Virus record (IMG/VR): IMGVR_UViG_3300025446_000004 | Location: 25,757 to 89,756 of that record | Reading direction: 5' to 3' (one strand) | DNA length: 64,000 bases | DNA from: a virus | In this document: one piece after another, positions 2,417 through 20,618 of the stretch | How the letters are laid out: each line of letters begins with the position of its first letter | How positions within the stretch are numbered: position 1 is the first letter of the stretch | The notes under the pieces: generated by a model | The model's database searches: none | Told to the model about the DNA's origin: nothing | What the model saw: the letters and a program-made list of their open reading frames with translations, nothing else | Position numbers and translations under genes: made by a program

Positions 2417-5098
2417 TTGGAAATCAAGCTTCTTAAAGCGGATGATGTAAAACCGCCAATGAATATTACCACAATCACAGATATTAAACAGCTTCCGCTT
2501 CTTGTGGATTTTTTCAATAACTCTGGTGGTGTGTTTGGGTGGGACATTGAGACAACTCCACTTAAAGATTTCTTCTATCGTCGCACTCGAACCGTTCAGT
2601 TTGGAAATCGAGAAAAACAATTTGTTGTCGATCTTCTGGCACTATGCGACGGTGATCCTGATTTGCTCTTTGAGGCTCAAGGGAATTATGGCGCGAATCT
2701 CTACAAAGCGCCAAAACTCAAACTCTTTATGGACACCATTGCTCCGGTGCTTTGCGCTGCTGACTGTACAAAGGTTGGTGTGATGCTGAGTTTTGAGTAC
2801 GAAAATTTTTACTGGCAATTCGGCCTTCGTACATGTGGATTCTTTGATTGCTCACTTGTAGAGAAAGTAATTTACGCCGGACTGCACTCATTGAAGCACT
2901 ATGAGTTTTATTCCATGGAGGCCATGACTCAACGCTATTTCGCATTCCAGATTGACAAGGGTTTGCAAACATCATTCAACCTGTCCGACCCACTCAGTGA
3001 AGACCAAATCAAATATGCAGCCCTTGATAGCCGCTTGCCGCTGGCCCTTCGTGATGCACAAATGCTTGTTCTTAAGGGCCGTACAGTAAAAGACTTGCTC
3101 GTGAAAGGAAACCCATCGGCTGCGATTCTTGCTAGATTAAACCCCCTTGTGCTTGGTGATAACCTCGTGGAGATTGCACAAATTGAAAATGATGCCATTG
3201 GCGCATTTCAAGACATGCACATTCACGGGGAGCGCATCAACTGTGAGAAGTGGCTTGCTCGATGCACCAAGCTTGAGGAAGAATTCAATAATCTGATTTT
3301 CAACGTGCTTGATCCTATATTTATACCAATTGTCGGGAACAAGAACGATCTCATAACCGATGAATCCATTGAAACAGCAACACAGGAATGGAAGGCCCTT
3401 AACATAGTAACCGATGAGGAATTAATTCTAAAAAAGGATGCAAGGGGAGCGCGAAAACAGGGTCTACATTCTGTGGCAAGAGATTTGGAAATTAAAGCAG
3501 GAGAATTAGAAACCGCACGACGAACAAAAAAAGATGCCCTAAAAGAACAGACCAATGCACTAAAACGTACACGCACGGTACAATATGCTCTCTTGGAAAA
3601 ATGTGAGGGCAATGCGCTCATCAACTATGGTTCAAACAAACAACTGATAGCAGTAGTGCAACAGATACCGGGTCTCAAGAAAGTTAAGGATATGGAAGAT
3701 GAGACCCTTGAAAAGTATTCTGTTTATGCTGTCATGCGTGCAATTAAAGAGTATCATCGAATTTCAAAAGAACTGAGTACTTATGGCAGACCGTGGGCAA
3801 CACAATGGAAAACACATGCGTGCAATGAAGAAGGATGGCTAAATCCCGGCGATGGTCGCTTGCACTCTGTGTTCAATCAACTTGAAGCTGAAACAGGACG
3901 GTCCAGTTCTGAAAAACCAAACGGCCAGAATGTACCACAAGATAAAGAAGTACGCAGTTGTTTTATTGCTGACCCACCAAATGAAAACATCCGGATTAGT
4001 GGCTGCTGTGAGGACGACACAAGCTTTGAACCAGACGCTTTTGGAGCAAATCAGTTTTATTGTTTGAAGTGTGGGCAGCCTTGTGAAACCCACGCCGAAG
4101 AGTATGTAATCATTACTGCCGACATGTCTGGTGCCGAATTGCGCATTATTGCTGAATGCGCCGATGATCCGTTGTGGATCATGGCATTCGCTCGTGGTAA
4201 AGATATTCACTCAGTAGGAACCGAACTTCTGTATGAAGAGAAGTGGCCCGTTCTTGCGCTGCCTGACTGTGACTACTATAAACTTCATACATGTGAATCG
4301 GTGGCGAAGAATCCGCTTTGTCAAGTTGGTGAACCACAATGCAAGAAATGTGAATGCCCTGAACACAAAGAACTTCGTGATGACAACAAGAGTACCAATT
4401 TTTTGTTAGCCTACGGGGGTGGTGCATATACGCTAGCGGCTCGCATCAAGAAGACAGTCCGTGAAGCTAAAATCCTTATGGCCCTTCACGAACAGAAGAA
4501 TCCGCGCATTTGGGAATATTTGAAAAAATCTGGTAAAATGGCCGTAAAGATCAAACGCGCATTCGACATGTTCGGACGCCGTAGATTGTTCCCAGAACCG
4601 ACCATGGAACTCGCTAAGGAACGGTTCATGGAGGATCACGAAGATAAGTTAGAAATTGAGCCGAATGAGGCCGATGAACGGATAGAAGATTTCGTTTCTA
4701 CATATAAGCGAAAACCGACTGCCGAGGAAAAATGGTTCTTGACACATCGGCTGCCAACACAGAACCAAATAAAAAGTTCTTGGAAAGGAATGCACGAGTC
4801 CATCGAACGGCAAGGCAAGAACCACTGCATTCAGGGAACCAACGCGACAATTGCAAAACTGGCTATGGGGTCTGGATGCGATAAAGATGGTAAACCATAC
4901 CTATGGGTGACATTGCCACAATATCGTGCCAAGTTGGTAAAGTTCGTTCACGATGAGTTGGTGATTCAAGCACCAAAGCAATATGCTCAGATTGTGGTAG
5001 AATTGGTGGGAGACGCTTTTAAACGATCGGCGTCCACAAAGATGAAGAAGGTGGTCATGGAGTTTGATGCCCACGTTGCGGAGTATTGGAAGAAATGA
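2417..5098 (+). CDS. polA: DNA polymerase family A with 3'-5' exonuclease
   Basis: Exo I DIET, Exo III YAALD; TGRSSS; motif A ADMSGAELR, motif B RxxxKxxNFxxxYG, motif C FVHDELV; start may instead be ATG 2459. Confidence 0.95.
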   Translation: MEIKLLKADDVKPPMNITTITDIKQLPLLVDFFNNSGGVFGWDIETTPLKDFFYRRTRTVQFGNREKQFVVDLLALCDGDPDLLFEAQGNYGANLYKAPKLKLFMDTIAPVLCAADCTKVGVMLSFEYENFYWQFGLRTCGFFDCSLVEKVIYAGLHSLKHYEFYSMEAMTQRYFAFQIDKGLQTSFNLSDPLSEDQIKYAALDSRLPLALRDAQMLVLKGRTVKDLLVKGNPSAAILARLNPLVLGDNLVEIAQIENDAIGAFQDMHIHGERINCEKWLARCTKLEEEFNNLIFNVLDPIFIPIVGNKNDLITDESIETATQEWKALNIVTDEELILKKDARGARKQGLHSVARDLEIKAGELETARRTKKDALKEQTNALKRTRTVQYALLEKCEGNALINYGSNKQLIAVVQQIPGLKKVKDMEDETLEKYSVYAVMRAIKEYHRISKELSTYGRPWATQWKTHACNEEGWLNPGDGRLHSVFNQLEAETGRSSSEKPNGQNVPQDKEVRSCFIADPPNENIRISGCCEDDTSFEPDAFGANQFYCLKCGQPCETHAEEYVIITADMSGAELRIIAECADDPLWIMAFARGKDIHSVGTELLYEEKWPVLALPDCDYYKLHTCESVAKNPLCQVGEPQCKKCECPEHKELRDDNKSTNFLLAYGGGAYTLAARIKKTVREAKILMALHEQKNPRIWEYLKKSGKMAVKIKRAFDMFGRRRLFPEPTMELAKERFMEDHEDKLEIEPNEADERIEDFVSTYKRKPTAEEKWFLTHRLPTQNQIKSSWKGMHESIERQGKNHCIQGTNATIAKLAMGSGCDKDGKPYLWVTLPQYRAKLVKFVHDELVIQAPKQYAQIVVELVGDAFKRSASTKMKKVVMEFDAHVAEYWKK

Positions 5099-7279: not shown

Positions 7280-7846
7280 ATGAATCAAACTCATTTCACG
7301 GCTGATGAGCATATCGGTCACAAAAATATAATTATTTACTGCAACCGCCCCTTTGCGGACATTCGTGAGATGCGCGATGAGATGATCCGTCGCCATAACG
7401 AAGTTGTCTCGGATGGTGATATAGTATATCATATCGGTGATATGTTTTGGCGTTTCAACAAGACAAAGGAAGTTTTAGACTACCTCTATTCACTCAACGG
7501 CACTCACCGATATGTTCTCGGGAACCATGAGGAAGCCATTCGAGACCTTTTCAATAAATATCCAGACTGTGAATTCTTTGGTCCCCTATTTGAGCGCGTG
7601 TACTTAAATGGGGTGTCTACGGGAACGCCGGGCGGCATTGTGCTTGACCACTATGCCGGACGCGTGTGGCAGAACAGCAGTCACGGCTCGTGGCAATTAT
7701 TTGGGCATAGTCACGCTGCACTACCTGACATTGGACTTTTACAAATGGATGTAGGAGTTGACGCCCACAACTTCTATCCTGTATCATTGGATCAAGTAAA
7801 AGCGATCATGGCAAAGAAAATGGAGAGCCAGAGTGAGCGACCCTGA
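7280..7846 (+). CDS. calcineurin-like metallophosphoesterase
   Basis: DxH, GD, GNHE, GHSH motifs. Confidence 0.9.
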   Translation: MNQTHFTADEHIGHKNIIIYCNRPFADIREMRDEMIRRHNEVVSDGDIVYHIGDMFWRFNKTKEVLDYLYSLNGTHRYVLGNHEEAIRDLFNKYPDCEFFGPLFERVYLNGVSTGTPGGIVLDHYAGRVWQNSSHGSWQLFGHSHAALPDIGLLQMDVGVDAHNFYPVSLDQVKAIMAKKMESQSERP

Positions 7847-9367: not shown

Positions 9368-9597
9368 TGTATATATCTTGTTACCGAATTTACAAACTCC
9401 GTCCTGACATGAAACCTGTTTGCTGTGAATCGTGTCATACGGATGATGAAGAATTTGGTTATGATTTATGTGCAGTTGACGGTCCAGATGGATCAATTGG
9501 TGAACATACTGGTGGAGTTTGTTGTAGAATGTCGATGCAACTTGACGATAAACCCTTAACTGTTGAAGAATGGGAAAAACTGAAAACGGAGGAGTAA
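9367..9597 (+). CDS. small Cys-rich protein
   Basis: TAATG coupling; CCESCH and VCC motifs. Confidence 0.6.
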   Translation: MYISCYRIYKLRPDMKPVCCESCHTDDEEFGYDLCAVDGPDGSIGEHTGGVCCRMSMQLDDKPLTVEEWEKLKTEE

Positions 9598-10073
9598 TGG
9601 CTAAAAAGAAATCATCCAAGCGTCCTATGAAGCCATACTGGACATTCGTGAACGACATTACATACTATCTAAAAGACCACTTCTACCTGCACTCGTGGAC
9701 TCTTCATGTTCTGCAAGTAAAGAACGACAAGACTAGCCAGAACGATACAAATGCCGAAGTGATTGCTAGCATGGGTAGTGATGATACCTATATGGACGCG
9801 ACTCTTAGTTTGTATCCTCTAGCAAAAAGAATGTGGAAAGAAAGGCGATGCAATTCCCTTGGACGTGCCATTGTACATGAATTCTGTCACGTCATAACCG
9901 ATCCTCTGTACAAGATTGCTTGTAACGGGATATGTCGCCGCGAAGGTCCGGGGCTGGAACATACGCGAGAGAATACGACACAACACATATGCAACATTGT
10001 CATGCCCGGCATCGACAAAAAAATCTTCTCTCCATATAAAAATATCAGGAGTAAACGACAATGCATACATTGA
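9597..10073 (+). CDS. HExxH motif protein
   Basis: IVHEFCHV; GGAG RBS; TAATG coupling. Confidence 0.65.
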   Translation: MAKKKSSKRPMKPYWTFVNDITYYLKDHFYLHSWTLHVLQVKNDKTSQNDTNAEVIASMGSDDTYMDATLSLYPLAKRMWKERRCNSLGRAIVHEFCHVITDPLYKIACNGICRREGPGLEHTRENTTQHICNIVMPGIDKKIFSPYKNIRSKRQCIH

Positions 10074-10824: not shown

Positions 10825-11338
10825 CAGTGTGAAACATTTGATTCCATTGGGAGCGTCTGTGTTTCATGCTGCCATGCCGGGATAGCTGCGCACGCTGTTA
10901 ATTATTACAACGCGCTGGATTAGTGGGGTATCCGATTTTGGCCACACCAGCAAAAGCTGACGAACGCATACCCCTGTGGGGTCTGGCGGCACGGTCGGCC
11001 CGGTACTTCTTAACCACCCTATAACCCCTGTAAAATCTTATACATGCGCCATGTAAACGGTTACAATGTTTCTGGGTTGCAACCTTTTACCGTTGGAATT
11101 CTGCGGCATCCGGTTTGTAACTCGTTTGGTTTTAATGGGATGGTCGCAATGTAAACAAAATCACATAATGTTGACAAATGGTCACAGGTTATCAACTAAT
11201 AAATTAGTTGATGGTTTGGAAACAAGATTGTGTGACGTGGCGCATAGTAAACGACAGGATACGGCCCATTTAATCTTTACATCCGTTCCCCTATTGAACT
11301 CGGTCCGTTCCGGGGTTCGCATCCGGCCCGGTTCTATT

Positions 11339-12621
11339 GCGGCCCGTTGCCGGTGTTCCTATAGTTGCTTGTGTCGATGTTCCCCGGCCCGTTTGGAGTC
11401 AACATCTGGCGGCCCGGTCGCCGGTGTTCTCGGTTGTCATGCTGCTACGTTGACCGGTTTGATTAGTTTGACCAGCGTCCCATTGCCGGGGTTATATGGT
11501 CTCAAGGTTCTATGGGGGGGTCACTGTCAATTGCCCGGCTTGGACCATTGCCGATAAAAATATAGTGGAACTCGCACAGGGCGATTTAAGCGGTTCGGAT
11601 CATTGCCGGGGTAATTCCCCATACCTGTGGTTAATACGGGCGCAGAGTGGCCCGGTTCTATTGCGGCCCGGTCGCCGGTTGCATGGCGGCCCGGTTGCTA
11701 TGCTGGCATTGACCGGCAGCCCCTTGGTTCGGGGTTACTAGGGTTCTATGGTTAAGGTATAAGGTCGAAGTCAATTGCTCGGCTCGGCCCGATCCGTTGC
11801 CGATAAAAATATATTGAAACTAACGCAACGTGATTTTACCGGCGGCCCGGTTCCACGGTTGACCAATTGACCGATTGACCGGCGGCCCATATCAGGCGGC
11901 CCGGTTGCCGGATCATTGCCGGATTACTGCGGCCCGTTACGCTCGCGGTTGTCGGTTTAATCTGGCGGCCCATTGCCGGGGTTGTTAGGTATAAGGGAAC
12001 GTGAGCTAAACGGGCCGGGCCGGATCATTCCCGATAACTTTATATCGTAACTCACTGCAAGGCGATTTAAACGACCTGTACCGTTGCCGGGGATCATTCC
12101 ATACTGGCGGCCCATTGAACGCATGGCGGCCCGGTTCTGATCACTGGCGGCCCGTTGTAATTGGCGGCCCGGTTCCTGGGTTGCGTTATCGGTTGCTGAT
12201 CATTTGGAGCAACCGGCGGCCCGTGGTTCTAATATTTTTTTCGTGGAATTCAACCGCTAGCACGTACAATGCCAAACGGCCCAATGTACTGTGAAAATTC
12301 CGAACGAAAGTAATACCGCTAAAATATGGCTCGGCGGCCCGGTTCGCATTGTAATGTTATAAATAAATCGCTTTACTTGCGGTTTTGTAAACGATTACAT
12401 TTCAGCCAATTAGTAAAGCGATTTACTAGCGGCTCTGTATGTCCTTGATTCTATTAACTAAATCGCTTTACAATCGCTTGCAAGCTAAATCAATTTACCT
12501 TGCCCGGTGTTGATCCGATTTTGAAAAATGAGGTGACCGGTCAACTCACGGCCCGGCGGCCCGTCTAGCGCGAAATACAGTTTCCCATATCAGGCGAATA
12601 TTAAGAGAATATTTGCGGCCC
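11339..12621 (+). repeat. non-coding region with same-strand GGCGGCCC octamers and degenerate ~240-bp units
   Basis: 13 GGCGGCCC plus 4 TGCGGCCC counted by eye; CCGATAA...AACT...GATTT block at 11551, 11800, 12031. Confidence 0.85.
12363..12498. promoter_or_regulatory. cluster of LacI/GalR-family-like operators
   Basis: ATAAATCGCTTTAC, TGTAAACGATTACA, TAGTAAAGCGATTTACTA, CTAAATCGCTTTAC, CTAAATCAATTTAC. Confidence 0.6.
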
Positions 12622-12731: not shown

Positions 12732-12929
12732 ATGGAAACATACTTCATTGTCATGGCCCTGTTAGCAACCGTGGTTCTAATGTTGGCCGGTCTTGTATGG
12801 CTCAATCATTGTCACCATAAAGCAACCATGATCTGTTTACTCATGCTCGTGTGTTGCTTTTTTCCGCCATTCCTTATCGTGGCTATTTTGATCGTGATGT
12901 GCGGTCAAGGAAAGGGGGAACCCCAATGA
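12732..12929 (+). CDS. small two-TM membrane protein
   Basis: Two hydrophobic stretches; AAGGGG RBS. Confidence 0.65.
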   Translation: METYFIVMALLATVVLMLAGLVWLNHCHHKATMICLLMLVCCFFPPFLIVAILIVMCGQGKGEPQ

Positions 12930-13216
12930 TGTACAAAGTGAACCTCAAGGGTTACAACGGCAACCGCAATAAATCAGTTCTGGTGTTAGCTCCCGATAAA
13001 AATGCAGCGATTAGCATCGCCTTACACGAGTCTGGTTTTTTCAGTGTCGAATCCGTTCAACCGGAACCGGTCGAATTTGGTTTTGACTATAAGCATCAAG
13101 CTTGGGTCCGAAACAACCGATACGTTGGATGCGGCCACACGAACCGGCCCACGTGCGGTTGCTTTGGCTCACTTCATGCCGGGGAACCGGTTCGGGCCGA
13201 TGCGGAGTTTAAGTAA
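12926..13216 (+). CDS. hypothetical protein with C-terminal CGH..CGC motif
   Basis: ATGA overlap; GGGGG RBS. Confidence 0.6.
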   Translation: MMYKVNLKGYNGNRNKSVLVLAPDKNAAISIALHESGFFSVESVQPEPVEFGFDYKHQAWVRNNRYVGCGHTNRPTCGCFGSLHAGEPVRADAEFK

Positions 13217-13398
13217 AAATATATGGAAACTGCATTGCACCTTGACAGAATACCGGCAAACGTTTGGCGCGAGTACGTGCAAGCGATACAGCGCACCGGG
13301 TTAACTCATCCGCTCAATGTCGCACTTGACCGGTTGCAGTTTTTATTTTCACTTTCCCCGGTTGACGTGGAAAAATATTTTCAAGAGAGGAGGAGCGC

Positions 13399-13497
13399 AT
13401 GATCCAAATGGTAGAAAGCTTTTTCCTGCTTTACACCGCGGCAGTGAGCGTGGTGTTGATCCTTGGCGCAATAGCTGTCAAGAACTCGGACCGATAA
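13399..13497 (+). CDS. 32-aa single-TM peptide (not in ORF track)
   Basis: GGAGGAG RBS; MIQMVESFFLLYTAAVSVVLILGAIAVKNSDR. Confidence 0.55.
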   Translation: MIQMVESFFLLYTAAVSVVLILGAIAVKNSDR

Positions 13498-13527
13498 CGC
13501 AACACTAACCAGAAAGGAAAAACTCGA

Positions 13528-13773
13528 ATGTTTAATCTTTACAAATTCGTGTTTGTTTCAAAATCGCATGACGGAAAAAGGGCCGAAATACGGCGAGTAA
13601 ACAAGTACACCGGCGCAACGAAAACTTTCCACGGTGTGAAATGCGGAGACGGGTTCCAAATCATTACCGGTTCGCGTGGTTTTTTTGACAACGGAAAAAC
13701 GGTAACACTTCCGGTTTACACCTTGCTTAAGGCGAGCGAAATTGAATCGTCCCCGGCAACCGAAACGTTGTAA
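13528..13773 (+). CDS. hypothetical protein
   Basis: AAAGGA RBS in a shared leader motif. Confidence 0.65.
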   Translation: MFNLYKFVFVSKSHDGKRAEIRRVNKYTGATKTFHGVKCGDGFQIITGSRGFFDNGKTVTLPVYTLLKASEIESSPATETL

Positions 13774-13968
13774 TAACATTTTCAAGAAAGTGTATCAAAG
13801 CAATGCAAAGTTTAGTTATTGGACGTGCCAGCGATTGTGACTGTAACTTGTGCCGTGGGTATGGCTGGCACATTTTCGCACCTTGGACAGTCCGAATGTG
13901 GCATAAGGTTTCCCGATTTTTCATTGAGAGTTATCAACAACATTTCAACCAGAAACGAGGATGAAAAA

Positions 13969-14184
13969 ATGATTGTCACGGAAACAATATCCTATAGGGT
14001 CTCAGGTATAGGGAAAACGTGGGAGGGGTTTAACATCACTTTTTCTCGTGAGTTTGACTATTTTCCGAGTTTGGATAATGTTCTCAAAACAACCGGAGAC
14101 TTTGAGACAATTGATCATATTAAGGTGCATTGCGTGCACACTGTAACGTGTGAAGAAACCACTAAGTGTGCATTGGCTTTGTAA
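13969..14184 (+). CDS. hypothetical protein
   Basis: GAGGA RBS before ATG 13969. Confidence 0.6.
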   Translation: MIVTETISYRVSGIGKTWEGFNITFSREFDYFPSLDNVLKTTGDFETIDHIKVHCVHTVTCEETTKCALAL

Positions 14185-14221
14185 ATATTATGAATTCAAC
14201 CCGAAACGAGGATTTTGACCT

Positions 14222-15772
14222 ATGGATTTTGTAACGCAATACCGGGCGGCCCGGCGAGTATCAACACCGCTGCTAGTCGTCCGCACATTTGACAGTAATT
14301 CAACCATCCGAACGATACGCGCAACTATCGGGGAAAAAATTGAGGATGTTGCGCTTATTCGTTGGGATATTTGCCACGGTTGCGAACCATTAACCAAACG
14401 GGCCGGGATCGAATTAAACGAAATGCTAGCGGGGGAAGAACCCGATATTACCCTGTCACTAGAAAACACTTTGAGGCTAGCAGAAAAACAGGCACACTCT
14501 GACCAGTCAACCATGGTCACATTGTTTATTTGTAACGCTCATTTGTTCTGGCGTGATAATCCGCAAGTGATTCAAGGAATTTGGAATTTGCGCGATCTTT
14601 ACAAGTCAAACGCTAACATGCTGGTGTTACTTACTTCCCCCGGTCAAACGGTACCGGCAGAATTGTCGAACGATGTTCTTGTGTTAGATGAACCGCTCCC
14701 CACACGTTCCGAACTCGGAAAAATCATTACTGATACTTTCCACTTTGCAAAATGGACTGCCCCAACTGGTGACCCACTAGAGCGGGCAGTTGATGCATTA
14801 GTGGGAGTGCCGGCTTTCGCAGCAGAGCAAAGTACCGCGATGAGTCTTGAAAGCAAAACTCAAGATTTAAATCTAAGCTCACTGTGGCAACACAAGCGAA
14901 CTATTATTGCTCAGACTCCGGGGTTATCGTTATTTGACGGCGACGATACGCTTGACAACATCGGAGGATTGGACAGTATCAAGTCATTCATTAGTTGTTT
15001 AATGAATGGGAAGCTTCCCCCGGCAGTGATCCTGTTTTCAGATGAAATTGAAAAAGGGTATGCCGGTACCGGAACCGATTTGAGCGGCACTAAAACGGAA
15101 TTGACCGGCGGCACACTCACATGGACTGAGGAAAAAGGAATTGACGGTATCCTATTACTTGGAGTACCCGGTGTGGGAAAATCGGCAATTATTAAGGCCA
15201 TGGGTGGAACGTACAATCGGCCCGTTATCGGGTTCGATGTTGGAGCAATGCAGGGTTCGCTCGTGGGTCAATCAGGCGCAAACTTCCGCACTGCTACAAA
15301 AACGGTTGACGCAATTTCGGACGGAAAAATCCTGTGGGTCGCAACATGTAACAGTGTTAATGCACTGCCTCCGGAGTTACGCTCACGATTCAAATTAGGC
15401 ACTTTCTTTTTTGATGTTCCAACTGAAACGGAACGGGCCGCGATTTGGAACATATACCGGGCAAAGTATGAAATACCGACGAATGATCCTACTCCGGATT
15501 GTACGGGGTGGACAGGCCGCGAAATTCGAGAGTGTGCATATAAGGCATACAGGTTTGGTATCACACTCAAGGAGGCGGCCCGGTACGTTGTTCCGGTAAC
15601 CATTTCGAGTAAAGAACAAATTCAAGGCTTGAGGCTAGCAAGCTCTGGGAAGTATCTTTCGGCTAGTTACCCCGGTCTGTTCAATTGCCGGGGAGAGTTA
15701 CCAGCAGCGAACATTGCAACCGTACCGGTTCTCCGTGCGGCCCGGTCACTCCAATTTGATGAGGAAAGGTAA
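14222..15772 (+). CDS. Ycf46-like AAA+ ATPase with rearranged motif order
   Basis: IGGLDSIK, VILFSDEIEK (Walker B) before GVPGVGKS (Walker A), GSLVGQS, ATCN..ALPPELRSRF, GWTGREI. Confidence 0.9.
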   Translation: MDFVTQYRAARRVSTPLLVVRTFDSNSTIRTIRATIGEKIEDVALIRWDICHGCEPLTKRAGIELNEMLAGEEPDITLSLENTLRLAEKQAHSDQSTMVTLFICNAHLFWRDNPQVIQGIWNLRDLYKSNANMLVLLTSPGQTVPAELSNDVLVLDEPLPTRSELGKIITDTFHFAKWTAPTGDPLERAVDALVGVPAFAAEQSTAMSLESKTQDLNLSSLWQHKRTIIAQTPGLSLFDGDDTLDNIGGLDSIKSFISCLMNGKLPPAVILFSDEIEKGYAGTGTDLSGTKTELTGGTLTWTEEKGIDGILLLGVPGVGKSAIIKAMGGTYNRPVIGFDVGAMQGSLVGQSGANFRTATKTVDAISDGKILWVATCNSVNALPPELRSRFKLGTFFFDVPTETERAAIWNIYRAKYEIPTNDPTPDCTGWTGREIRECAYKAYRFGITLKEAARYVVPVTISSKEQIQGLRLASSGKYLSASYPGLFNCRGELPAANIATVPVLRAARSLQFDEER

Positions 15773-15776
15773 ACCG

Positions 15777-16160
15777 ATGAGTGCATATTCTGAATTCCCA
15801 ATGTCCGAGTTTAAAGACTGTAACCTCTTGATCGAGGCAATGGAAAAAATGGGATACAGTCAAATCAGCCTCGACAAAACGAACTATGAATTGAGGCCAA
15901 TGCAACCCGATTTAGTGTTTCGTAAAAATGGCGCATACGCTAGCACGTGGAACGATGTAGGCTTCAAGCGTACCCCGAACGGCACTTATAGTGCTATGTT
16001 CTCGGATTACGCAACCGGCAATACTCAAACATGGGTGCAAAAACTCAAAGGCGAGTACATCGAATGCGGTGTGATTCTCCAAGCCAAGAAAATGGGATTG
16101 CGGCCTGTGGGTCGCACTGAGAAAAATGGTAAGGTAACGCTCGTTTATCAGCGTGCATAA
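15777..16160 (+). CDS. DUF1257 (Ycf35-like) protein
   Basis: MSxYS...L.EA.EKMGY...NDVGFKRxxNGTY...DY; follows the Ycf46-like ATPase. Confidence 0.75.
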   Translation: MSAYSEFPMSEFKDCNLLIEAMEKMGYSQISLDKTNYELRPMQPDLVFRKNGAYASTWNDVGFKRTPNGTYSAMFSDYATGNTQTWVQKLKGEYIECGVILQAKKMGLRPVGRTEKNGKVTLVYQRA

Positions 16161-16195
16161 CGCAAGCGCAACCGAAAGGAAAAGGTAAAAATATC

Positions 16196-16393
16196 ATGGC
16201 GAAAACGAAACTTGTAACCATTACGATTGACAAAGAAGCCGGCGGAGGATTCACATGCGATACAACCGGTTTCGAGGGCAAAGGGTGTGCCGATATTCAC
16301 AGGATGTTTGAGTCTATTGGCGGCCCCGGCAAAACGGATCATAAGCCAGAGTGGAACCAAATACAACGGTTGAACGTTACGGCGGGGAGGTAA
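16196..16393 (+). CDS. DUF2997-family small protein
   Basis: VTITID...GFEGKGC...KPEW; typical context after DUF1257. Confidence 0.75.
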   Translation: MAKTKLVTITIDKEAGGGFTCDTTGFEGKGCADIHRMFESIGGPGKTDHKPEWNQIQRLNVTAGR

Positions 16394-16396
16394 TCT

Positions 16397-17035
16397 ATGT
16401 TAGTTCATGCACGTATCGATAGCTCACAAGTCAATGGGCCGGGGAACCGGGCAGTGCTATGGTTTCAAGGTTGTTCCCTTAACTGCCTCGGATGTTGGAA
16501 TGAGGGCACTCACCCATTTGATTTTGCTTATCACGTAGAATGGGGAACCATTCAAACATGGTTGATGAATTTACCGGCAGATGTAACAGGGTTGACCCTA
16601 TCAGGGGGAGAGCCATTGCAGCACTCGTTTGACGTGCTAGCAATAGCCGATTTTTTGAGCCTAGTACGGCCCGGTTTTTCCATTGGCTTATTCACGGGGT
16701 ACACTCTGCCAGAGTTACGGGCCGGTCGATTCCAAACTATCGACCAAACCGGAACCCGTTTGATACTCGGGGAACCGGAATTATGGGCCGCGATTGAAAA
16801 CAGAATCGATTTTGCAGTAATGGGCCGGTTTAATCCGGGATTAGTAACCATTAAAAAACCGTTATGCGGTTCCGATAACCAAAGGGTTGTTCTATTCTCG
16901 AACCGCCATAAGCTTGCGGATTTTGACGGGCAAGCTTGCGAGATTACAATTGGGGAACATGAGGGCCAGATGTGCGCAACTATGACGGGGTTCCCCGGTT
17001 CTGAATTCATTACCAGCATCAAAACTGCCCTATAA
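16397..17035 (+). CDS. NrdG-like radical SAM / 4Fe-4S activating protein
   Basis: VNGPGxRAVLWFQGCxxxCxxCxN, GLTLSGGEP, FTGY, GSDNQ. Confidence 0.9.
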   Translation: MLVHARIDSSQVNGPGNRAVLWFQGCSLNCLGCWNEGTHPFDFAYHVEWGTIQTWLMNLPADVTGLTLSGGEPLQHSFDVLAIADFLSLVRPGFSIGLFTGYTLPELRAGRFQTIDQTGTRLILGEPELWAAIENRIDFAVMGRFNPGLVTIKKPLCGSDNQRVVLFSNRHKLADFDGQACEITIGEHEGQMCATMTGFPGSEFITSIKTAL

Positions 17036-17062
17036 CGGGGTAACGAAAAGGAAGGTTAGAAC

Positions 17063-17992
17063 ATGGCTGAAAGCAACATTCAGACAATAACATTCAACGA
17101 TGTAAGCGGGTTATCATCTCAAGTGATGTTTTTACAATTGCGGGCCGGTTTACTCGGGAACTCTCGAAAAATGGGAGGCGATATTTTCAACACTCCGGGA
17201 ACCGATGTTGCATGGTTATCCGCAAACAAAAAACTCCTTGAGTCACCGCAATTGGACGCGATACGCAAAGCAGACATGCGCATACGTCAGTGGTTATATA
17301 ACTCAAAGGGACCAGCGTTACCTTGCAGCTTTGATGCGTTTACAATTCCTAATGGTTCCGTTGTTTCAGTACGGAACAAGCTTGAGGAATTTAAAACGGA
17401 ACGGGCCGGGTTGGTTGATGAATTCATGGCGGTGTACGTGGAACAATCAAGGGAAGCAAGGGAAAAACTCGGCCCGCAATGGAATCCACACGAGTACTTG
17501 ACCCCCGAACGTGTTCGAGCGAAATTTTACTTTGAGTATTCCTTTTATGGTTTCGGAGTCTCCGAAACACTTAAAGAAATTTCGCAAGAACTCTACGATG
17601 AACAAAAAAACAAAATCGAATCGGATTTTCGCAATGCAGCGGACGAGATCACCGCAGTGATGCGGGAAACTGCTTTCGGGTTACTGCAAAACTTGCAAGA
17701 ACAATTGACCCCGGACGATACCACGGGCAAAGCTAAAAAACTTCATCCGGCGGCCCTTGCGAACGTTAAAAACTTTCTTGAAAGTTTCAGCATCAAGAAT
17801 GTTACAAATGACAATGAACTCTCAAACATTCTCGCGCAAGTGAAAACACTGGTGACCGGGGTCGATACAAAAACCATTAAGGCCAGCGAGTCATTTAAAA
17901 CAAACATGCGCGATAAACTCGCAGAGATTACCGGGAAACTTTCGACCATGGTCGAGGAAAAATCGGGCCGCAAGTTTCTATTCGATGAGTGA
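17063..17992 (+). CDS. DUF3150-like helical protein
   Basis: Overall pattern (KKLL...ALP...F...Y...Y.TPERVRAKF.F) and neighbourhood. Confidence 0.55.
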   Translation: MAESNIQTITFNDVSGLSSQVMFLQLRAGLLGNSRKMGGDIFNTPGTDVAWLSANKKLLESPQLDAIRKADMRIRQWLYNSKGPALPCSFDAFTIPNGSVVSVRNKLEEFKTERAGLVDEFMAVYVEQSREAREKLGPQWNPHEYLTPERVRAKFYFEYSFYGFGVSETLKEISQELYDEQKNKIESDFRNAADEITAVMRETAFGLLQNLQEQLTPDDTTGKAKKLHPAALANVKNFLESFSIKNVTNDNELSNILAQVKTLVTGVDTKTIKASESFKTNMRDKLAEITGKLSTMVEEKSGRKFLFDE

Positions 17993-18058
17993 CAGAACCG
18001 GGCCGGGCAACCGGCCCACGGTTCCTTAACACGTTTTTTCAAGAAAGGAAAAAACCAA

Positions 18059-18724
18059 ATGATTGGAATTACGAAAACTGAACTACAAACCCTGTTTGAT
18101 GCGATCAAAATTCAAGACAAATTTGACCGCAAAGAGTTTGTGCATCTTCTTGTATTGTGCCGTTTGGCGATGCGAACCGGAACAGAAAAGCAATTGTTCG
18201 CAGCAGTCGAAGACGTAAACTGGGAACTCGGAATCGAGCAATCGGAACCGGCGCCCCCGGAACATGATCCACTCGAAAACATGATCGGGAATACGTTACG
18301 TGACTATCGGGCCGCCGGTTTACCTAATCCGGTTGAGCCAAGAATCCACGAGGTAACCCCGGCAGTACCGGACCCAGCTCCGGAACCTGTGCCAGCTTCG
18401 GAACCCGATCTCAATCCCGCAATCACGGAAGCTTTGAACAGTATGCGGGGAGAGTCGATCACCCTAGCAGATGGTATCGCCGTTTCGTTTCTTGGAACCG
18501 GCCCGATTCCTCTTGGGGTTGCATTGGACGTGGAACCGCGCATTGAACAATCGGCAAACTATCCTCGCATTATGCGCCGTTTACAAATCGCGCAAGAATT
18601 ACTCTCAGGTTACTGTCACCAGTACCGCGAAACCGGAACTTTTACTCCGGAATATGTCGGGCAAACGTTCCGGGAAAAATGTATTGCAATTCTGCGTTAT
18701 GTAGTCAACTTGCTAAAAAACTAG
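18059..18724 (+). CDS. hypothetical protein with Pro/Glu-rich linker
   Basis: AAAGGA RBS; last gene of the block. Confidence 0.65.
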   Translation: MIGITKTELQTLFDAIKIQDKFDRKEFVHLLVLCRLAMRTGTEKQLFAAVEDVNWELGIEQSEPAPPEHDPLENMIGNTLRDYRAAGLPNPVEPRIHEVTPAVPDPAPEPVPASEPDLNPAITEALNSMRGESITLADGIAVSFLGTGPIPLGVALDVEPRIEQSANYPRIMRRLQIAQELLSGYCHQYRETGTFTPEYVGQTFREKCIAILRYVVNLLKN

Positions 18725-18819
18725 CCTCGCATTTGACCTATAACGGGCCGATGTGAATACTCCGGGCCAGTACCATGGCAGAAATGCCGGATACTGGCCC
18801 GGTTCTTTTTTGACGGCTC

Positions 18820-19413
18820 CGGCCCGGCCCGGCGGCCCGTTCCCATATAAAAATATATTGAACTTCGACGGCCCGGTAAACGGATCATATGGTCCGGAAC
18901 CATAGAACCGGCCCTGTAAACTACGGCCCGGCGGCCCACGGTTGACTTGTATGGCTCATATACAGTTTTCGTGACCCTATACCCTCAAAAAAATATTTAT
19001 AAGGTAAACCGATTTACTTTCAAGTTTGAAAAACATTTTACCACGGTCAAAGTAAATCGCTTTACCTATAATTTTATATAAGGGTACGGTACCATCCCCC
19101 GGCGGCCCGGCGGCCCATGGGGGAACACTGGCGGCCCATGGCGGCCCGATCTCGTGAGTGACCGGCAACCCCGGCGGCCCGGTACCGGCGGCCCACGTGG
19201 CAACCGGCGGCCCGGCGGCCCGGTTCTACAGGCGGCCCCGGTACCCTGGTTCTAATATATCTATTGAAATAGTAACATTTTGGTTACACGTTACTAGAGT
19301 AATACACCCTACCAATTACATATTACTAAAGTAACTGTATACAATTGGCAACAGTAACGTTACCTTAGTCATCATAGTAACGTTACCAAAGTAACAACCG
19401 CTCCGGGCGGCCC
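18820..19413 (+). repeat. second GGCGGCCC cluster with LacI-like operators and AGTAAC repeats
   Basis: 12 GGCGGCCC; GTAAACCGATTTAC (19004) and GTAAATCGCTTTAC (19052); AGTAACGTTACC at 19353 and 19376. Confidence 0.85.
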
Positions 19414-20159: not shown

Positions 20160-20618
20160 ATGGCCTACAGTCCGTGTCCGAAGTGCCAAACGAAAGAAGA
20201 GTTTGATAACTTTTTTGCCACAATGCCCGAGGCGGAAGCAATCGAGTCCGCTGGATTCGCAGTCATGGAACCGGGATTCCGGTTGAAATGCAATCGAAAT
20301 CCTGACCATCATTGGGAAACCTCAGAGGGCCTACACAGAGACCTTGCAGCAGCCGGGCATACAGGCCGCCGGGCGTTGAACGTTATGGAACTACCGGGGA
20401 CAGCACCCAAGCGTAAACCAGTGCGCTATGAGCGAGGGCCGATTGGACTCTTGTTCGATATATTGTTTCCAGAATCCGAGGGCTTTCGGTGTAAACTTTT
20501 ACCGGAAGCCAAGCACTGCCTCCATCGGGCGATGTGCCACTTGCGCGGTGATTTAAAAAATACATATCCGTCTACCAAGGATGGTGTTCCGGTACCCGGA
20601 GTCGTTTGGAACGATTAG
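20160..20618 (+). CDS. hypothetical protein with N-terminal CPKC
   Basis: AAGGAG RBS. Confidence 0.65.
   Translation: MAYSPCPKCQTKEEFDNFFATMPEAEAIESAGFAVMEPGFRLKCNRNPDHHWETSEGLHRDLAAAGHTGRRALNVMELPGTAPKRKPVRYERGPIGLLFDILFPESEGFRCKLLPEAKHCLHRAMCHLRGDLKNTYPSTKDGVPVPGVVWND

What the first reader, a model, noticed from the sequence alone, without database searches (positions are those of the whole stretch)
14222..15772. AAA+ ATPase with Walker B placed before Walker A
In Ycf46-type ATPases the order is GGL..LK, Walker A, GxLVGxS, Walker B (DEIEK..G..SG...LTW.QE), sensor-1 (ATxN..LPPEL). Here the whole Walker B strand-helix unit (VILFSDEIEKGYAG...GGTLTWTEEK, DE at 15041) comes before GILLLGVPGVGKS (15161), and the GSLVGQS helix runs straight into sensor-1 (LWVATCN, ~15341). 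All catalytic motifs are intact and the frame is open. This is an internal segment swap in the P-loop core that would need rewired strand connectivity.
Basis: partly seen in the sequence, partly recalled or inferred. Interest (0 to 1): 0.75.

Follow-up and report, generated by a model that had tools for sequence, protein, structure and literature searches.

The report
AAA ATPase with relocated Walker B
A soil phage gene encodes an AAA-type motor ATPase in which the chain segment carrying the catalytic Walker B acids lies before the ATP-binding P-loop segment instead of after it. A large family of phage and prophage proteins shares this rewiring with every catalytic residue kept.

Summary
ORF 14222-15772 (+, 516 aa) lies in an 89.8-kb virus record. 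It reads: linker helix, Walker B strand-loop-helix unit (residues 266-306, D274/E275), Walker A unit (307-368, K320), then sensor-1 (N377), arginines and lid.

It is not a misassembly. Contigs of other peat runs span the junctions without joints. All 269 relatives, 80 of 80 prokaryote-genome loci and 80 of 80 viral loci have the same order with intact catalytic residues.

Normal-order relatives exist (Rhizobium phage L338C, Mycobacterium phage Corndog). The family profile hits them in four pieces with the two middle pieces exchanged.

A confident AlphaFold model (pLDDT 89) has five core strands and superposes on p97 D2 (Z 15.9). Coevolution places the moved strand beside sensor-1's strand, as in normal AAA folds.

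My reading is an active two-module (pseudo-D1 plus D2) AAA remodelling motor with a non-cyclic internal permutation, in an AAA-DUF1257-DUF2997 gene module. The cellular function is unknown.

Ten literature searches found no description. This scan noted the same rewiring earlier on other DNA. No biochemistry exists, and I could not inspect model coordinates.

The parts
14222..15772 (+). Whole gene, 516 aa (P0001): two-module AAA protein with a permuted second module. GAGGA lies 9 nt before the ATG.
14222..14917 (+). Module 1 (about residues 1-232): AAA-like alpha/beta module plus lid with no P-loop (pseudo-ATPase D1). It is homologous to the N-terminal module of normal-order phage relatives.
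   Evidence: The model aligns over 1-498 to p97 D1-D2, Z 17.7, 408 residues, rmsd 6.7. Profile positions 12-254 hit P0270 28-280, E 7.7e-19. phrog_8638 matches 11-257, E 3.5e-38. No Pfam hit there.
14957..15007 (+). Linker helix before the core (IGGLD motif and helix, residues 246-262). It is the entry to the ATPase core and is unchanged in position.
15017..15139 (+). Relocated unit B (residues 266-306): strand beta3 with Walker B (D274 E275 at 15041-15046), the loop equivalent to pore loop 2, and helix alpha3.
   Evidence: Profile positions 263-300 align AFTER the Walker A unit in P0270 (357-394) and P0269 (373-415). D274 is D in 265 and E in 4 of 269; E275 is kept in 269 of 269. Strand 269-273 and helix 290-304 in the model.
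15140..15325 (+). Unit A (residues 307-368): strand beta1, P-loop GVPGVGKS (15161-15184, K320), helix alpha1, strand beta2, the LVG loop (pore loop 1 position), helix alpha2.
   Evidence: Pfam AAA profile 1-57 at residues 310-366. K320 is kept in 269 of 269. Model elements E308-314, H320-330, E335-338, H350-366.
15326..15421 (+). Unit C start (residues 369-400): strand beta4 with sensor-1 N377 (15350-15352), LPPELRSRF with R387/R389 (R389 at 15386-15388), strand beta5.
   Evidence: N377 is kept in 268 of 269 and R389 in 267 of 269. E370-376 and E393-397 in the model.
15422..15691 (+). Helical lid of module 2 (residues 401-490). Residues 492-516 are predicted disordered.
15777..16160 (+). Next gene, DUF1257-like (127 aa from the ATG at 15777; a TTG at 15714 would give 148 aa).
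   Evidence: Pfam DUF1257 E 0.0046, below the cut-off. phmmer E 1.2e-9 to Tunturi_3 gp102, which is DUF1257 at E 1.2e-7.
16196..16393 (+). 65-aa gene, DUF2997-like.
   Evidence: No Pfam hit of its own. phmmer E 7.8e-6 to L338C_053 and 5e-5 to Tunturi_3 gp101, both DUF2997 by Pfam.
16397..17035 (+). Radical SAM activase-like gene (212 aa). It often follows the module in relatives.
   Evidence: Pfam Fer4_12 E 1.2e-22; phrog_626; found downstream in 37 of 80 prokaryote-genome loci.
17063..17992 (+). 309-aa gene of unknown function with a weak DUF3150 resemblance. It is a frequent neighbour.
   Evidence: Pfam DUF3150 E 0.0034, below the cut-off; found downstream in 56 of 80 loci.

Best explanation
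This is a genuine, functional AAA ATPase of a roughly 90-kb peat-soil phage with two modules: a degenerate P-loop-less D1 and a catalytic D2. In D2, the roughly 40-residue unit beta3 / Walker B / pore-loop-2 / alpha3 has been transposed in front of the unit beta1 / P-loop / alpha1 / beta2 / pore-loop-1 / alpha2. The N-terminal entry helix and everything from sensor-1 onward stay in place, so this is a non-cyclic (internal) permutation.

The three-dimensional fold and the active site are those of a normal classical AAA domain, and only three loop connections differ: alpha0 to beta3, alpha3 to beta1, and alpha2 to beta4. In the standard sheet order 5-1-4-3-2, each new connection skips one or two strands in the same direction as the old one. 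All crossovers therefore stay right-handed and each helix stays on its face (inference from textbook topology).

The protein most likely works as a ring-forming, ATP-driven protein-remodelling or unfolding motor. It would act together with the DUF1257 and DUF2997 proteins encoded next to it, as its normal-order phage relatives presumably do (inferred; neither substrate nor ring is shown).

The rearrangement most likely arose once, by tandem duplication of the A+B segment followed by loss of the outer copies. It arose in a lineage of phages and prophages, mainly of Acidobacteriota.
For: Shown directly:
- The order of motifs in the sequence.
- The same order with catalytic residues kept in 269 of 269 relatives: K320 269, E275 269, D274 265 D plus 4 E, N377 268, R389 267.
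- The same in 80 of 80 prokaryote-genome loci and in 80 of 80 viral loci, of which the 67 non-redundant sequences keep all these residues.
- Contigs of other runs span the junctions with no joints or indels. The X16 record covers 14263-15602, and 11 of its 12 differences fall on third codon positions.

Homology with exchanged order:
- Profile pieces 12-254, 302-360, 263-300 and 364-434 land on P0270 at 28-280, 297-355, 357-394 and 397-474. P0269 shows the same pattern.
- The same out-of-order pieces appear on the D2 of solved 5vc7.
- Pfam AAA matches profile 1-57 only here, against 1-129 in P0270.

Fold:
- The AlphaFold2 model has pLDDT 89.1 and pTM 0.75, with strands at 269-273, 308-314, 335-338, 370-376 and 393-397 and helices between them.
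- Residues 236-487 superpose on p97 D2 (6g2x) with Z 15.9, rmsd 2.4 A and 197 residues aligned. The whole chain superposes on p97 D1-D2 with Z 17.7.

Coevolution (mean-field DCA, 415 sequences, Meff 243, 14,706 pairs):
- Rank 1 is V269-S366, the start of the moved strand against the end of alpha2. These are sequence neighbours in normal AAA proteins and lie 97 residues apart here.
- Pairs between the moved strand and beta4: L271-W372, S273-W372, I270-L371, F272-T375, D274-T375.
- beta1|beta4: L311-A374. beta1|beta5: L312-F397, L311-F396.
- alpha3 with alpha2, alpha4 and beta4; pore-loop regions K291-Q344.

Same gene module behind permuted and normal-order forms: DUF1257 plus DUF2997 follow Tunturi_3 gp103 (permuted) and L338C gp050 (normal). 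The window's two downstream genes are homologous to them.
Against: - I could not read the model's coordinates. The sheet order and the K320 to D274/E275 geometry are inferred from secondary structure, coevolution and topology rules, and were not measured.
- The structural aligners used are sequential, so they cannot show where the moved unit sits.
- There are no biochemical data, and no RNA run is listed.
- The glycine before the P-loop lysine is replaced in more than half of the permuted family: G 126, A 72, S 63, other 8 of 269, and A 77, C 3 of 80. It is G in 119 of 119 normal-order relatives where the motif was found. This could mean weakened or altered nucleotide handling in many members. 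The window's own protein has G.
- Single origin rests on a tree with only two normal-order groups sampled.
- The unfoldase role and the partnership with the small proteins are inferences from family resemblance and gene order.
Confidence: 0.8

Rival explanations
1. Assembly or annotation artefact: a local misassembly or chimeric contig created the odd order.
For: The window comes from a metagenome-derived virus record.
Against: Contigs of four other runs lie on 13900-16200 with no joints, indels or loose ends, and single records span the junctions: X16 14263-15602, X13 14386-15253 and 15270-15420. The same order is found in 269 of 269 relatives from many sources, in 80 of 80 prokaryote-genome loci, in 80 of 80 viral loci, and in the complete genome of the cultured Tunturiibacter phage Tunturi_3.
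Confidence: 0.01
2. The upstream DEIEK is not the working Walker B. Either the module is a pseudo-ATPase (nucleotide binder or scaffold), or another acidic residue downstream of Walker A does the catalysis.
For: The P-loop glycine is relaxed to A/S/C in most family members, which is unusual for active P-loop enzymes. No activity data exist.
Against: E275 is invariant (269 of 269) and D274 is D or E in all. K320, N377 and R389 are kept in 267-269 of 269, which is the pattern expected of a hydrolysing site. The segment is homologous to the Walker B unit of normal-order relatives. D274 covaries with T375 next to sensor-1. Between Walker A and sensor-1 the only nearly invariant acid is D339 at the end of beta2, and the strand that replaces the Walker B position (ILWVATCN) has no acid. 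An intein sits in the sensor-1 motif of one member; inteins usually sit in functionally essential sites (recalled).
Confidence: 0.1
3. Three-dimensional domain swap: the moved beta3-alpha3 unit inserts into the sheet of the neighbouring subunit, so that complete active sites exist only in the oligomer.
For: Coevolution cannot tell contacts within a chain from contacts between chains. Permutations sometimes go with swapping (recalled).
Against: The monomer model is confident through the region, with block pLDDT means of 79-96 over residues 261-400. The new linkers are short, at 4-6 residues. The top covarying pair, V269-S366, fits an intramolecular position beside the chain's own alpha2.
Confidence: 0.05
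4. The permutation arose several times independently, or the 'normal' phage forms are secondarily derived from the permuted one.
For: Only two normal-order groups were sampled and the tree is unrooted.
Against: All permuted proteins examined share the same breakpoints and align with one another at 37-72% identity. The normal-order phage proteins are 22-26% identical to P0001. The permuted|normal split has support 1.0. The normal order is that of all other AAA proteins, for example p97 and VAT, so it is ancestral.
Confidence: 0.05

Closest known systems
Normal-order two-module AAA ATPases of phages: Rhizobium phage vB_RleS_L338C gp050 (AHC30467.1, 'AAA+ family ATPase') and Mycobacterium phage Corndog gp96 (NP_817947.1). 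Sources label their relatives 'SpoVK/Ycf46/Vps4 family AAA+-type ATPase'.
   Same: The same two-module build. The N-terminal module is homologous (profile 12-254, E 7.7e-19). All motif units are homologous. For L338C, the same DUF1257 + DUF2997 genes lie downstream.
   Different: Their order is Walker A unit, then Walker B unit. Identity to P0001 is only 22-26%. The P-loop glycine is strictly kept, 119 of 119.
Tunturiibacter phage Tunturi_3 gp103 (XOB77284.1, annotated 'ATPase'); cultured podovirus of an acidobacterium, 97,608 bp
   Same: A member of the same permuted family, 45% identical over 95% of P0001, with the same order and the same DUF1257/DUF2997 neighbours.
   Different: Its P-loop reads GVPGVSKS, with serine in place of the last glycine. 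The passages I read of the paper describing the phage (PMC11924767) do not mention the ATPase; the words 'ATPase' and 'AAA' occur 0 times in the main text.
Classical AAA clade, type II: p97/VCP, Cdc48, VAT, NVL/Rix7
   Same: Best structural matches. The whole chain aligns to p97 D1-D2 with Z 17.7, and residues 236-487 align to p97 D2 with Z 15.9, rmsd 2.4 A. It shares Walker A, Walker B, sensor-1, the arginine pair and the pore-loop positions.
   Different: Those proteins have the standard chain order and an active or nucleotide-binding D1. Here D1 has no P-loop and D2 is permuted. Sequence profiles match them only piecewise and out of order.
Circularly permuted P-loop GTPases (YlqF/RbgA, YjeQ/RsgA, Nug1). 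Recalled from general knowledge; PMC9196750 calls Nug1 a circularly permuted GTPase (passage).
   Same: Natural P-loop NTPases whose motif order differs from the norm while the fold and catalysis are kept.
   Different: There the whole domain is cyclically permuted, giving new N and C termini. Here the termini of the domain are unchanged and two internal neighbouring units have exchanged places. The superfamily branch also differs (GTPases against the AAA/ASCE branch).

Membership tests
AAA (Pfam PF00004; classical AAA clade) | Pfam AAA model reached above its gathering score | tested here: met
   35.7 bits against a cut-off of 21.2, but only profile positions 1-57 of 131 are matched, at residues 310-366. 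The normal-order control P0270 gives 103.4 bits over profile 1-129.
AAA (Pfam PF00004; classical AAA clade) | Walker A GxxxxGK[ST], Walker B hhhhDE, sensor-1 polar residue, arginine finger(s) in the second region of homology | tested here: met
   GVPGVGKS (K320), VILFSDE (D274 E275), ATCN (N377), ELRSRF (R387, R389). These are kept in 267-269 of 269 relatives.
AAA (Pfam PF00004; classical AAA clade) | Chain order beta1-alpha1-beta2-alpha2-beta3-alpha3-beta4 (Walker A before Walker B) | tested here: not met
   Walker B is at 274-275 and Walker A at 314-321. Profile pieces fall out of order on P0269, P0270 and on 5vc7.
AAA (Pfam PF00004; classical AAA clade) | Three-dimensional fold of the AAA alpha/beta core plus helical lid | tested here: met
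   VIA-align gives Z 15.9, rmsd 2.4 A, 197 residues aligned to p97 D2. Foldseek gives probability 1.00 to Cdc48/p97/NVL. The position of the moved unit in the sheet is supported by coevolution only.
AAA (Pfam PF00004; classical AAA clade) | Ring (hexamer) assembly with arginine fingers acting across subunits | not testable with these tools
   No usable result was obtained; this needs size-exclusion chromatography, mass photometry or cryo-EM.
Ycf46-type two-module AAA ATPases (COG label SpoVK/Ycf46/Vps4) | N-terminal non-catalytic module homologous to that of the normal-order phage relatives | tested here: met
   Profile 12-254 against P0270 28-280, 54.7 bits, E 7.7e-19; against P0269, 26 bits. 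phrog_8638 E 3.5e-38.
Ycf46-type two-module AAA ATPases (COG label SpoVK/Ycf46/Vps4) | Neighbourhood with DUF1257 (Ycf35) and DUF2997 genes | tested here: met
   The window's two downstream genes are homologous to Pfam-confirmed DUF1257/DUF2997 genes of Tunturi_3 and L338C. The window's own Pfam hit is below the cut-off. A cyanobacterial DUF2997-DUF1257(ycf35) cluster is named in PMC4284462 (passage).
Ycf46-type two-module AAA ATPases (COG label SpoVK/Ycf46/Vps4) | Direct homology to cyanobacterial or plastid Ycf46 itself | not tested
No Ycf46 sequence was fetched.
Circularly permuted P-loop NTPases | Cyclic permutation of the whole domain (new termini) | tested here: not met
   The entry helix (246-262) and everything from sensor-1 on are collinear with normal-order relatives. 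Only the two middle units are exchanged.

The most novel reading that the evidence does not exclude
This would be the first natural rewiring of strand order inside the catalytic core of an AAA/ASCE motor, and the rewiring would not be neutral. The chain would pass from the D1-D2 linker straight into the Walker B strand and pore loop 2. That would couple D1 movements directly to hydrolysis and substrate grip. It would also loosen the constraint on the P-loop: the last glycine is free to be A, S or C only in the permuted family. The result would be a motor with a different nucleotide cycle from its normal-order sisters.
Probability: 0.2. Interest if true: 0.85.

Novelty: new variant of a known kind. 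Interest (0 to 1): 0.68.

Why it matters
The chain order of the AAA core (Walker A, then Walker B, then sensor-1) is treated as a constant of this very large and well-studied motor superfamily. Profile models such as Pfam AAA assume it. Here a large natural family breaks it while keeping every catalytic residue: at least 269 proteins were checked, 1,125 cluster representatives score E <= 1e-30, and 377 prokaryote-genome loci and 207 viral loci encode a relative.

This offers three things:
- a natural experiment on how far the P-loop sandwich tolerates rewiring, and on folding pathways and the coupling between Walker B, the pore loops and neighbouring domains;
- a worked case of non-cyclic permutation, presumably through duplication and loss;
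- a practical warning that domain annotation reports only half an AAA domain for these proteins.

A cultured phage-host pair (Tunturi_3 on Tunturiibacter psychrotolerans) carries a member, so the question is open to experiment.

Tried and rejected
- Self-assembly: complex prediction was given three copies of residues 232-490 with ATP. The first request did not complete; the repeated request returned 'no answer' (score 0.01, mark 0.42). This gives no verdict and is not used either way.
- RNA evidence: no RNA holder is listed among the 24 runs, so nothing can be said on expression.
- Promoter and terminator scan of 13200-19000: 5 and 7 sites found against 7.7 and 7.6 expected from shuffles. The operon limits are therefore not defined.
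- NCBIfam: only a sub-threshold partial hit to IteA (24 bits against a cut-off of 510) over the Walker A unit. This is not informative.
- ESM Atlas: the nearest clusters are generic 'AAA family ATPase' clusters of viruses and Acidobacteriota, and there is no structure search because the Atlas holds no model.
- Pfam on the 65-aa neighbour and on ORFs 12851-14184, and PHROGs on the larger ORFs at 9570-10070, 11066-11554, 15714-16157, 17063-17989, 18059-18721 and 20160-20615, gave no hits.
- Regex counting of motif order left 29 of 271 sequences unmatched. It called P0093 and P0094 'normal' because a chance Walker-A-like string lies upstream. The alignment (for P0093) and the profile alignment show that both are permuted.
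- Tree: the permuted|normal split has support 1.0, but only 55 permuted and 31 normal-order sequences from two normal-order groups were used, and the tree is unrooted. It says little beyond 'one clan'. I left out proteins shorter than 440 or longer than 600 aa (permuted) and shorter than 480 or longer than 640 aa (normal), and took every 5th or 4th id.
- Literature: searches found no description of an AAA protein with Walker B before Walker A. The 'permuted' or 'reverse order' passages I read concern methylases (PMC10853773, PMC7824862), a non-ATPase Schlafen core (PMC8789055) and a GTPase (PMC9196750). Only open-access text is searched, and supplements are closed. Table S3 of PMC11924767, which holds the ORF annotations of Tunturi_3, could not be seen.
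- Intermediates with both units duplicated (A-B-A-B) were not found among the 269 proteins. I did not run a dedicated search of longer proteins.
Full report
**1. What is in the sequence**

The ORF 14222..15772 on the + strand is open and encodes 516 residues. A GAGGA lies 9 nt before the ATG. After the IGGLD motif and a helix (residues 246-262), the chain reads as follows:
- VILFSDEIEK, with D274 E275 at 15041-15046.
- A glycine- and serine-rich loop and a helix containing LTW.
- GILLLGVPGVGKS, with the P-loop at 15161-15184 and K320.
- A helix, a short strand and the GSLVGQS helix.
- ILWVATCN (N377 at 15350-15352), LPPELRSRF and FFFDVP.

So the Walker B strand-loop-helix unit precedes Walker A, and the helix that normally leads into Walker B leads into sensor-1. 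The window is part of an 89,756-bp virus record estimated 95% complete, and it holds no second relative of this protein.

**2. Not an artefact**

The gene is held by 24 listed peat and wetland runs from 23 studies. I laid contigs of four of them on 13900-16200 and found no joints, indels or loose ends. Single records span the new junctions:
- X16: 14263-15602.
- X13: 14386-15253 and 15270-15420.
- X2, which may be the source sample: the whole stretch.

The X16 record differs at 12 sites between 14767 and 14821, and 11 of them are third codon positions of this frame, by my arithmetic.

The order is also a family trait.
- A word-indexed search gave 1,313 relatives among 8,000 scored candidates.
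- An exhaustive phmmer search of 1.84 billion cluster representatives gave 5,636 hits at E <= 1e-3 and 1,125 at E <= 1e-30.
- I aligned all 269 sequences in hand to the family profile: the window's protein, the 120 listed, the 147 further ones listed, and Tunturi_3 gp103.
- The Walker B column pair lies before the Walker A lysine in all of them. E275 is kept in 269 of 269; D274 is D in 265 and E in 4; K320 is kept in 269, N377 in 268 and R389 in 267.
- The best 80 of 377 loci in prokaryote genomes, and the best 80 of 207 loci in viral contigs, all hold an intact ORF that matches the profile collinearly.
- The complete genome of the cultured Tunturiibacter phage Tunturi_3 carries one, gp103, annotated only as 'ATPase'.

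**3. Relation to normal-order proteins**

In the phage collection, 43 records match the protein. Only Tunturi_3 covers 80% or more of it. I read two of the other 42: Corndog gp96 and Rhizobium phage L338C gp050. Both have the ordinary order of Walker A, VGxSE helix, Walker B, LTxMQ helix, sensor-1.

A profile of 56 permuted proteins hits each of them in four pieces. For L338C the mapping is:

| Profile positions | L338C gp050 (P0270) residues |
|---|---|
| 12-254 | 28-280 |
| 302-360 | 297-355 |
| 263-300 | 357-394 |
| 364-434 | 397-474 |

The two middle pieces are exchanged, and only 1-3 residues lie between pieces. The same profile hits the D2 of the solved VCP-like ATPase 5vc7 in the same exchanged order. 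Pfam AAA sees only profile positions 1-57 of 131 in the window's protein (35.7 bits). It sees positions 1-129 (103.4 bits) in L338C gp050.

The event is thus a clean exchange of two neighbouring units:
- A: beta1, P-loop, alpha1, beta2, alpha2; residues 307-368.
- B: beta3 with Walker B, loop, alpha3; residues 266-306.

The entry helix and everything from sensor-1 onward are left in place. This is a non-cyclic permutation of the domain, equivalent to a circular permutation of the A+B sub-segment only.

**4. Fold**

AlphaFold2 with a 56-sequence alignment gave a confident model: mean pLDDT 89.1, pTM 0.75. Only the tail 492-516 is below 50.
- In the second module, DSSP finds five strands (269-273, 308-314, 335-338, 370-376, 393-397) separated by helices. 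That is the element count of an AAA core.
- Foldseek and VIA-align put the whole chain on p97/Cdc48/NVL D1-D2: Z 17.7, 408 residues, rmsd 6.7 A.
- Residues 236-487 fall on p97 D2: 6g2x, Z 15.9, rmsd 2.4 A, 197 residues aligned.
- The N-terminal half is therefore a P-loop-less AAA-like module, a pseudo-D1. It is also the part that is homologous to the N-terminal module of the normal-order phage proteins.
- The 197 aligned residues equal the entry helix plus unit A plus unit C and lid (17+62+119, my arithmetic). That is what a sequential aligner would do if it had to skip unit B. This is only consistent with the reading; it is not proof.

Because I could not read coordinates, I tested the position of unit B by coevolution. 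I used mean-field DCA on columns 244-420, first with 269 sequences (Meff 204) and then with 415 non-identical sequences (Meff 243). Of 14,706 pairs at least 6 residues apart:
- The top pair is V269-S366 (z 16.2), the first residue of the moved strand against the last turn of alpha2. These are chain neighbours in ordinary AAA proteins and lie 97 residues apart here.
- The moved strand covaries in register with the sensor-1 strand: I270-L371, L271-W372, S273-W372, F272-T375, D274-T375, I276-A374.
- beta1 covaries with beta4 (L311-A374) and with beta5 (L312-F397, L311-F396).
- alpha3 covaries with alpha2, alpha4 and beta4.
- The two pore-loop regions covary (K291-Q344).
- One weak pair links the moved strand to beta2 (A268-R333, z 3.1).

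This is the neighbour pattern of the standard sheet order beta5-beta1-beta4-beta3-beta2, which I recall from the AAA+ literature. In that sheet, the three new connections run in the same direction as the connections they replace: alpha0 to beta3, alpha3 to beta1 skipping beta4, and alpha2 to beta4 skipping beta3. All crossovers can therefore stay right-handed and each helix can stay on its face. This step is inference.

**5. Catalytic site**

All residues needed for hydrolysis are under strong constraint.

One feature differs from the normal-order relatives. The glycine before the P-loop lysine varies in the permuted family but not in the normal-order one:

| Set | Residue before the P-loop lysine |
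|---|---|
| Permuted proteins (269) | G 126, A 72, S 63, other 8 |
| Prokaryote-genome loci (80) | A 77, C 3 |
| New viral sequences (67) | A 31, G 27, S 9 |
| Normal-order relatives with the motif found (119; 2 of 121 not matched, both carrying intein-type Pfam labels) | G 119 |

The window's own protein has glycine. I cannot say what this relaxation means. It is the main reason to keep a pseudo-enzyme or altered-cycle reading alive for part of the family.

**6. Context and distribution**

The gene sits in the early, DNA-metabolism part of the phage. A family-A-type DNA polymerase lies at 2417-5098 and a phosphoesterase at 7280-7846. It is followed on the same strand by:
- a DUF1257-like gene (15777-16160);
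- a DUF2997-like gene (16196-16393);
- a radical SAM activase-like gene (16397-17035);
- a 309-aa gene.

Pfam-confirmed DUF1257 and DUF2997 genes follow both the permuted Tunturi_3 gp103 and the normal-order L338C gp050. The permuted and normal forms therefore occupy the same module and presumably do the same job.

Of 80 prokaryote-genome loci, 74 have at least 900 nt downstream. Relatives of the four neighbours were found in the following numbers:

| Downstream gene | Loci with a relative (of 80) |
|---|---|
| DUF1257-like | 32 |
| DUF2997-like | 41 |
| Radical SAM | 37 |
| 309-aa gene | 56 |

The 80 loci are nearly all in Acidobacteriota assemblies (Terriglobia, Bryobacterales, Solibacter). 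Several lie on contigs of 1-3.6 Mb, which points to prophages, and some assemblies hold several copies.

**7. How it most likely works**

- Shown: homology to classical AAA proteins, intact motifs, an AAA-like model and a conserved module.
- Inferred: a ring-forming ATP-driven remodelling or unfolding motor. Its LVG loop (pore loop 1 position) and the loop after Walker B (pore loop 2 position) would face a central channel. It would act on, or together with, the DUF1257 and DUF2997 proteins.
- Origin, also inferred: tandem duplication of A+B to A-B-A-B, followed by loss of the first A and the last B. This is the usual route to permutation. The similar glycine-hydrophobic-run-glycine pattern at the start of beta1 and of beta4 (seen, piece 5) may have eased the new junction.
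- The permuted proteins form one clan in a small unrooted tree (support 1.0) and share identical breakpoints, so a single origin is the simplest reading.

**8. Novelty**

The closest known phenomenon is the circularly permuted GTPases, where the whole domain is cyclically permuted. Earlier notes of this scan report the same rewiring on other genomes and reach the same reading. I used them as leads only and tested the claims on this window.

**9. Limits**

- No coordinates could be inspected.
- There is no biochemistry, no expression data and no verdict on self-assembly.
- The tree is thinly sampled on the normal-order side.
- The 'Ycf46' label was not tested against a real Ycf46.

Noticed in passing
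protein P0195 (relative); corresponds to window 15344-15352: An 896-aa member of the permuted family carries an intein-like insert inside the sensor-1 motif: it begins with C, ends in HN, and is followed by C, with homing-endonuclease-sized content. Two normal-order relatives (P0346 at 911 aa, P0355 at 832 aa) carry Hint/intein Pfam labels.
   Followed up: partly
window 15176-15178 (residue 319) and the same column in relatives: The glycine before the P-loop lysine is freely replaced by A, S or C in the permuted family, but is G in 119 of 119 normal-order relatives examined. This is unexplained.
   Followed up: partly
window 15777-17992: A conserved gene string lies behind the ATPase: DUF1257-like, DUF2997-like, radical SAM activase-like (Fer4_12; PHROG 'anaerobic ribonucleotide reductase small subunit') and a 309-aa protein with a weak DUF3150 resemblance. 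It recurs in 29-56 of 80 prokaryote-genome loci, depending on the gene. Its function is unknown.
   Followed up: partly
window 14767-14821: A contig of run X16 differs from the window at 12 sites packed into 55 bases and is otherwise identical over 1,340 bases. Eleven of the 12 are third codon positions. It looks like a small recombination patch from a related strain.
   Followed up: no
loci L006, L009, L012, L027 (one Acidobacteriota assembly, MFD05580.bin.1.127): One metagenome-assembled genome holds at least four copies of the permuted ATPase gene on different contigs, two of them on contigs of 2.1 and 3.65 Mb. This suggests several related prophages in one genome.
   Followed up: no
window 2417-5098: An 893-aa DNA polymerase (phrog_17) matches only part of the profile (positions 656-1206 of 1445) over residues 21-866. 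It may carry inserts.
   Followed up: no
window about 48000: GC skew and gene strand switch sign near 48 kb: + strand genes lie before it and - strand genes after it. This is probably the border between the early/replication and structural gene blocks.
   Followed up: no
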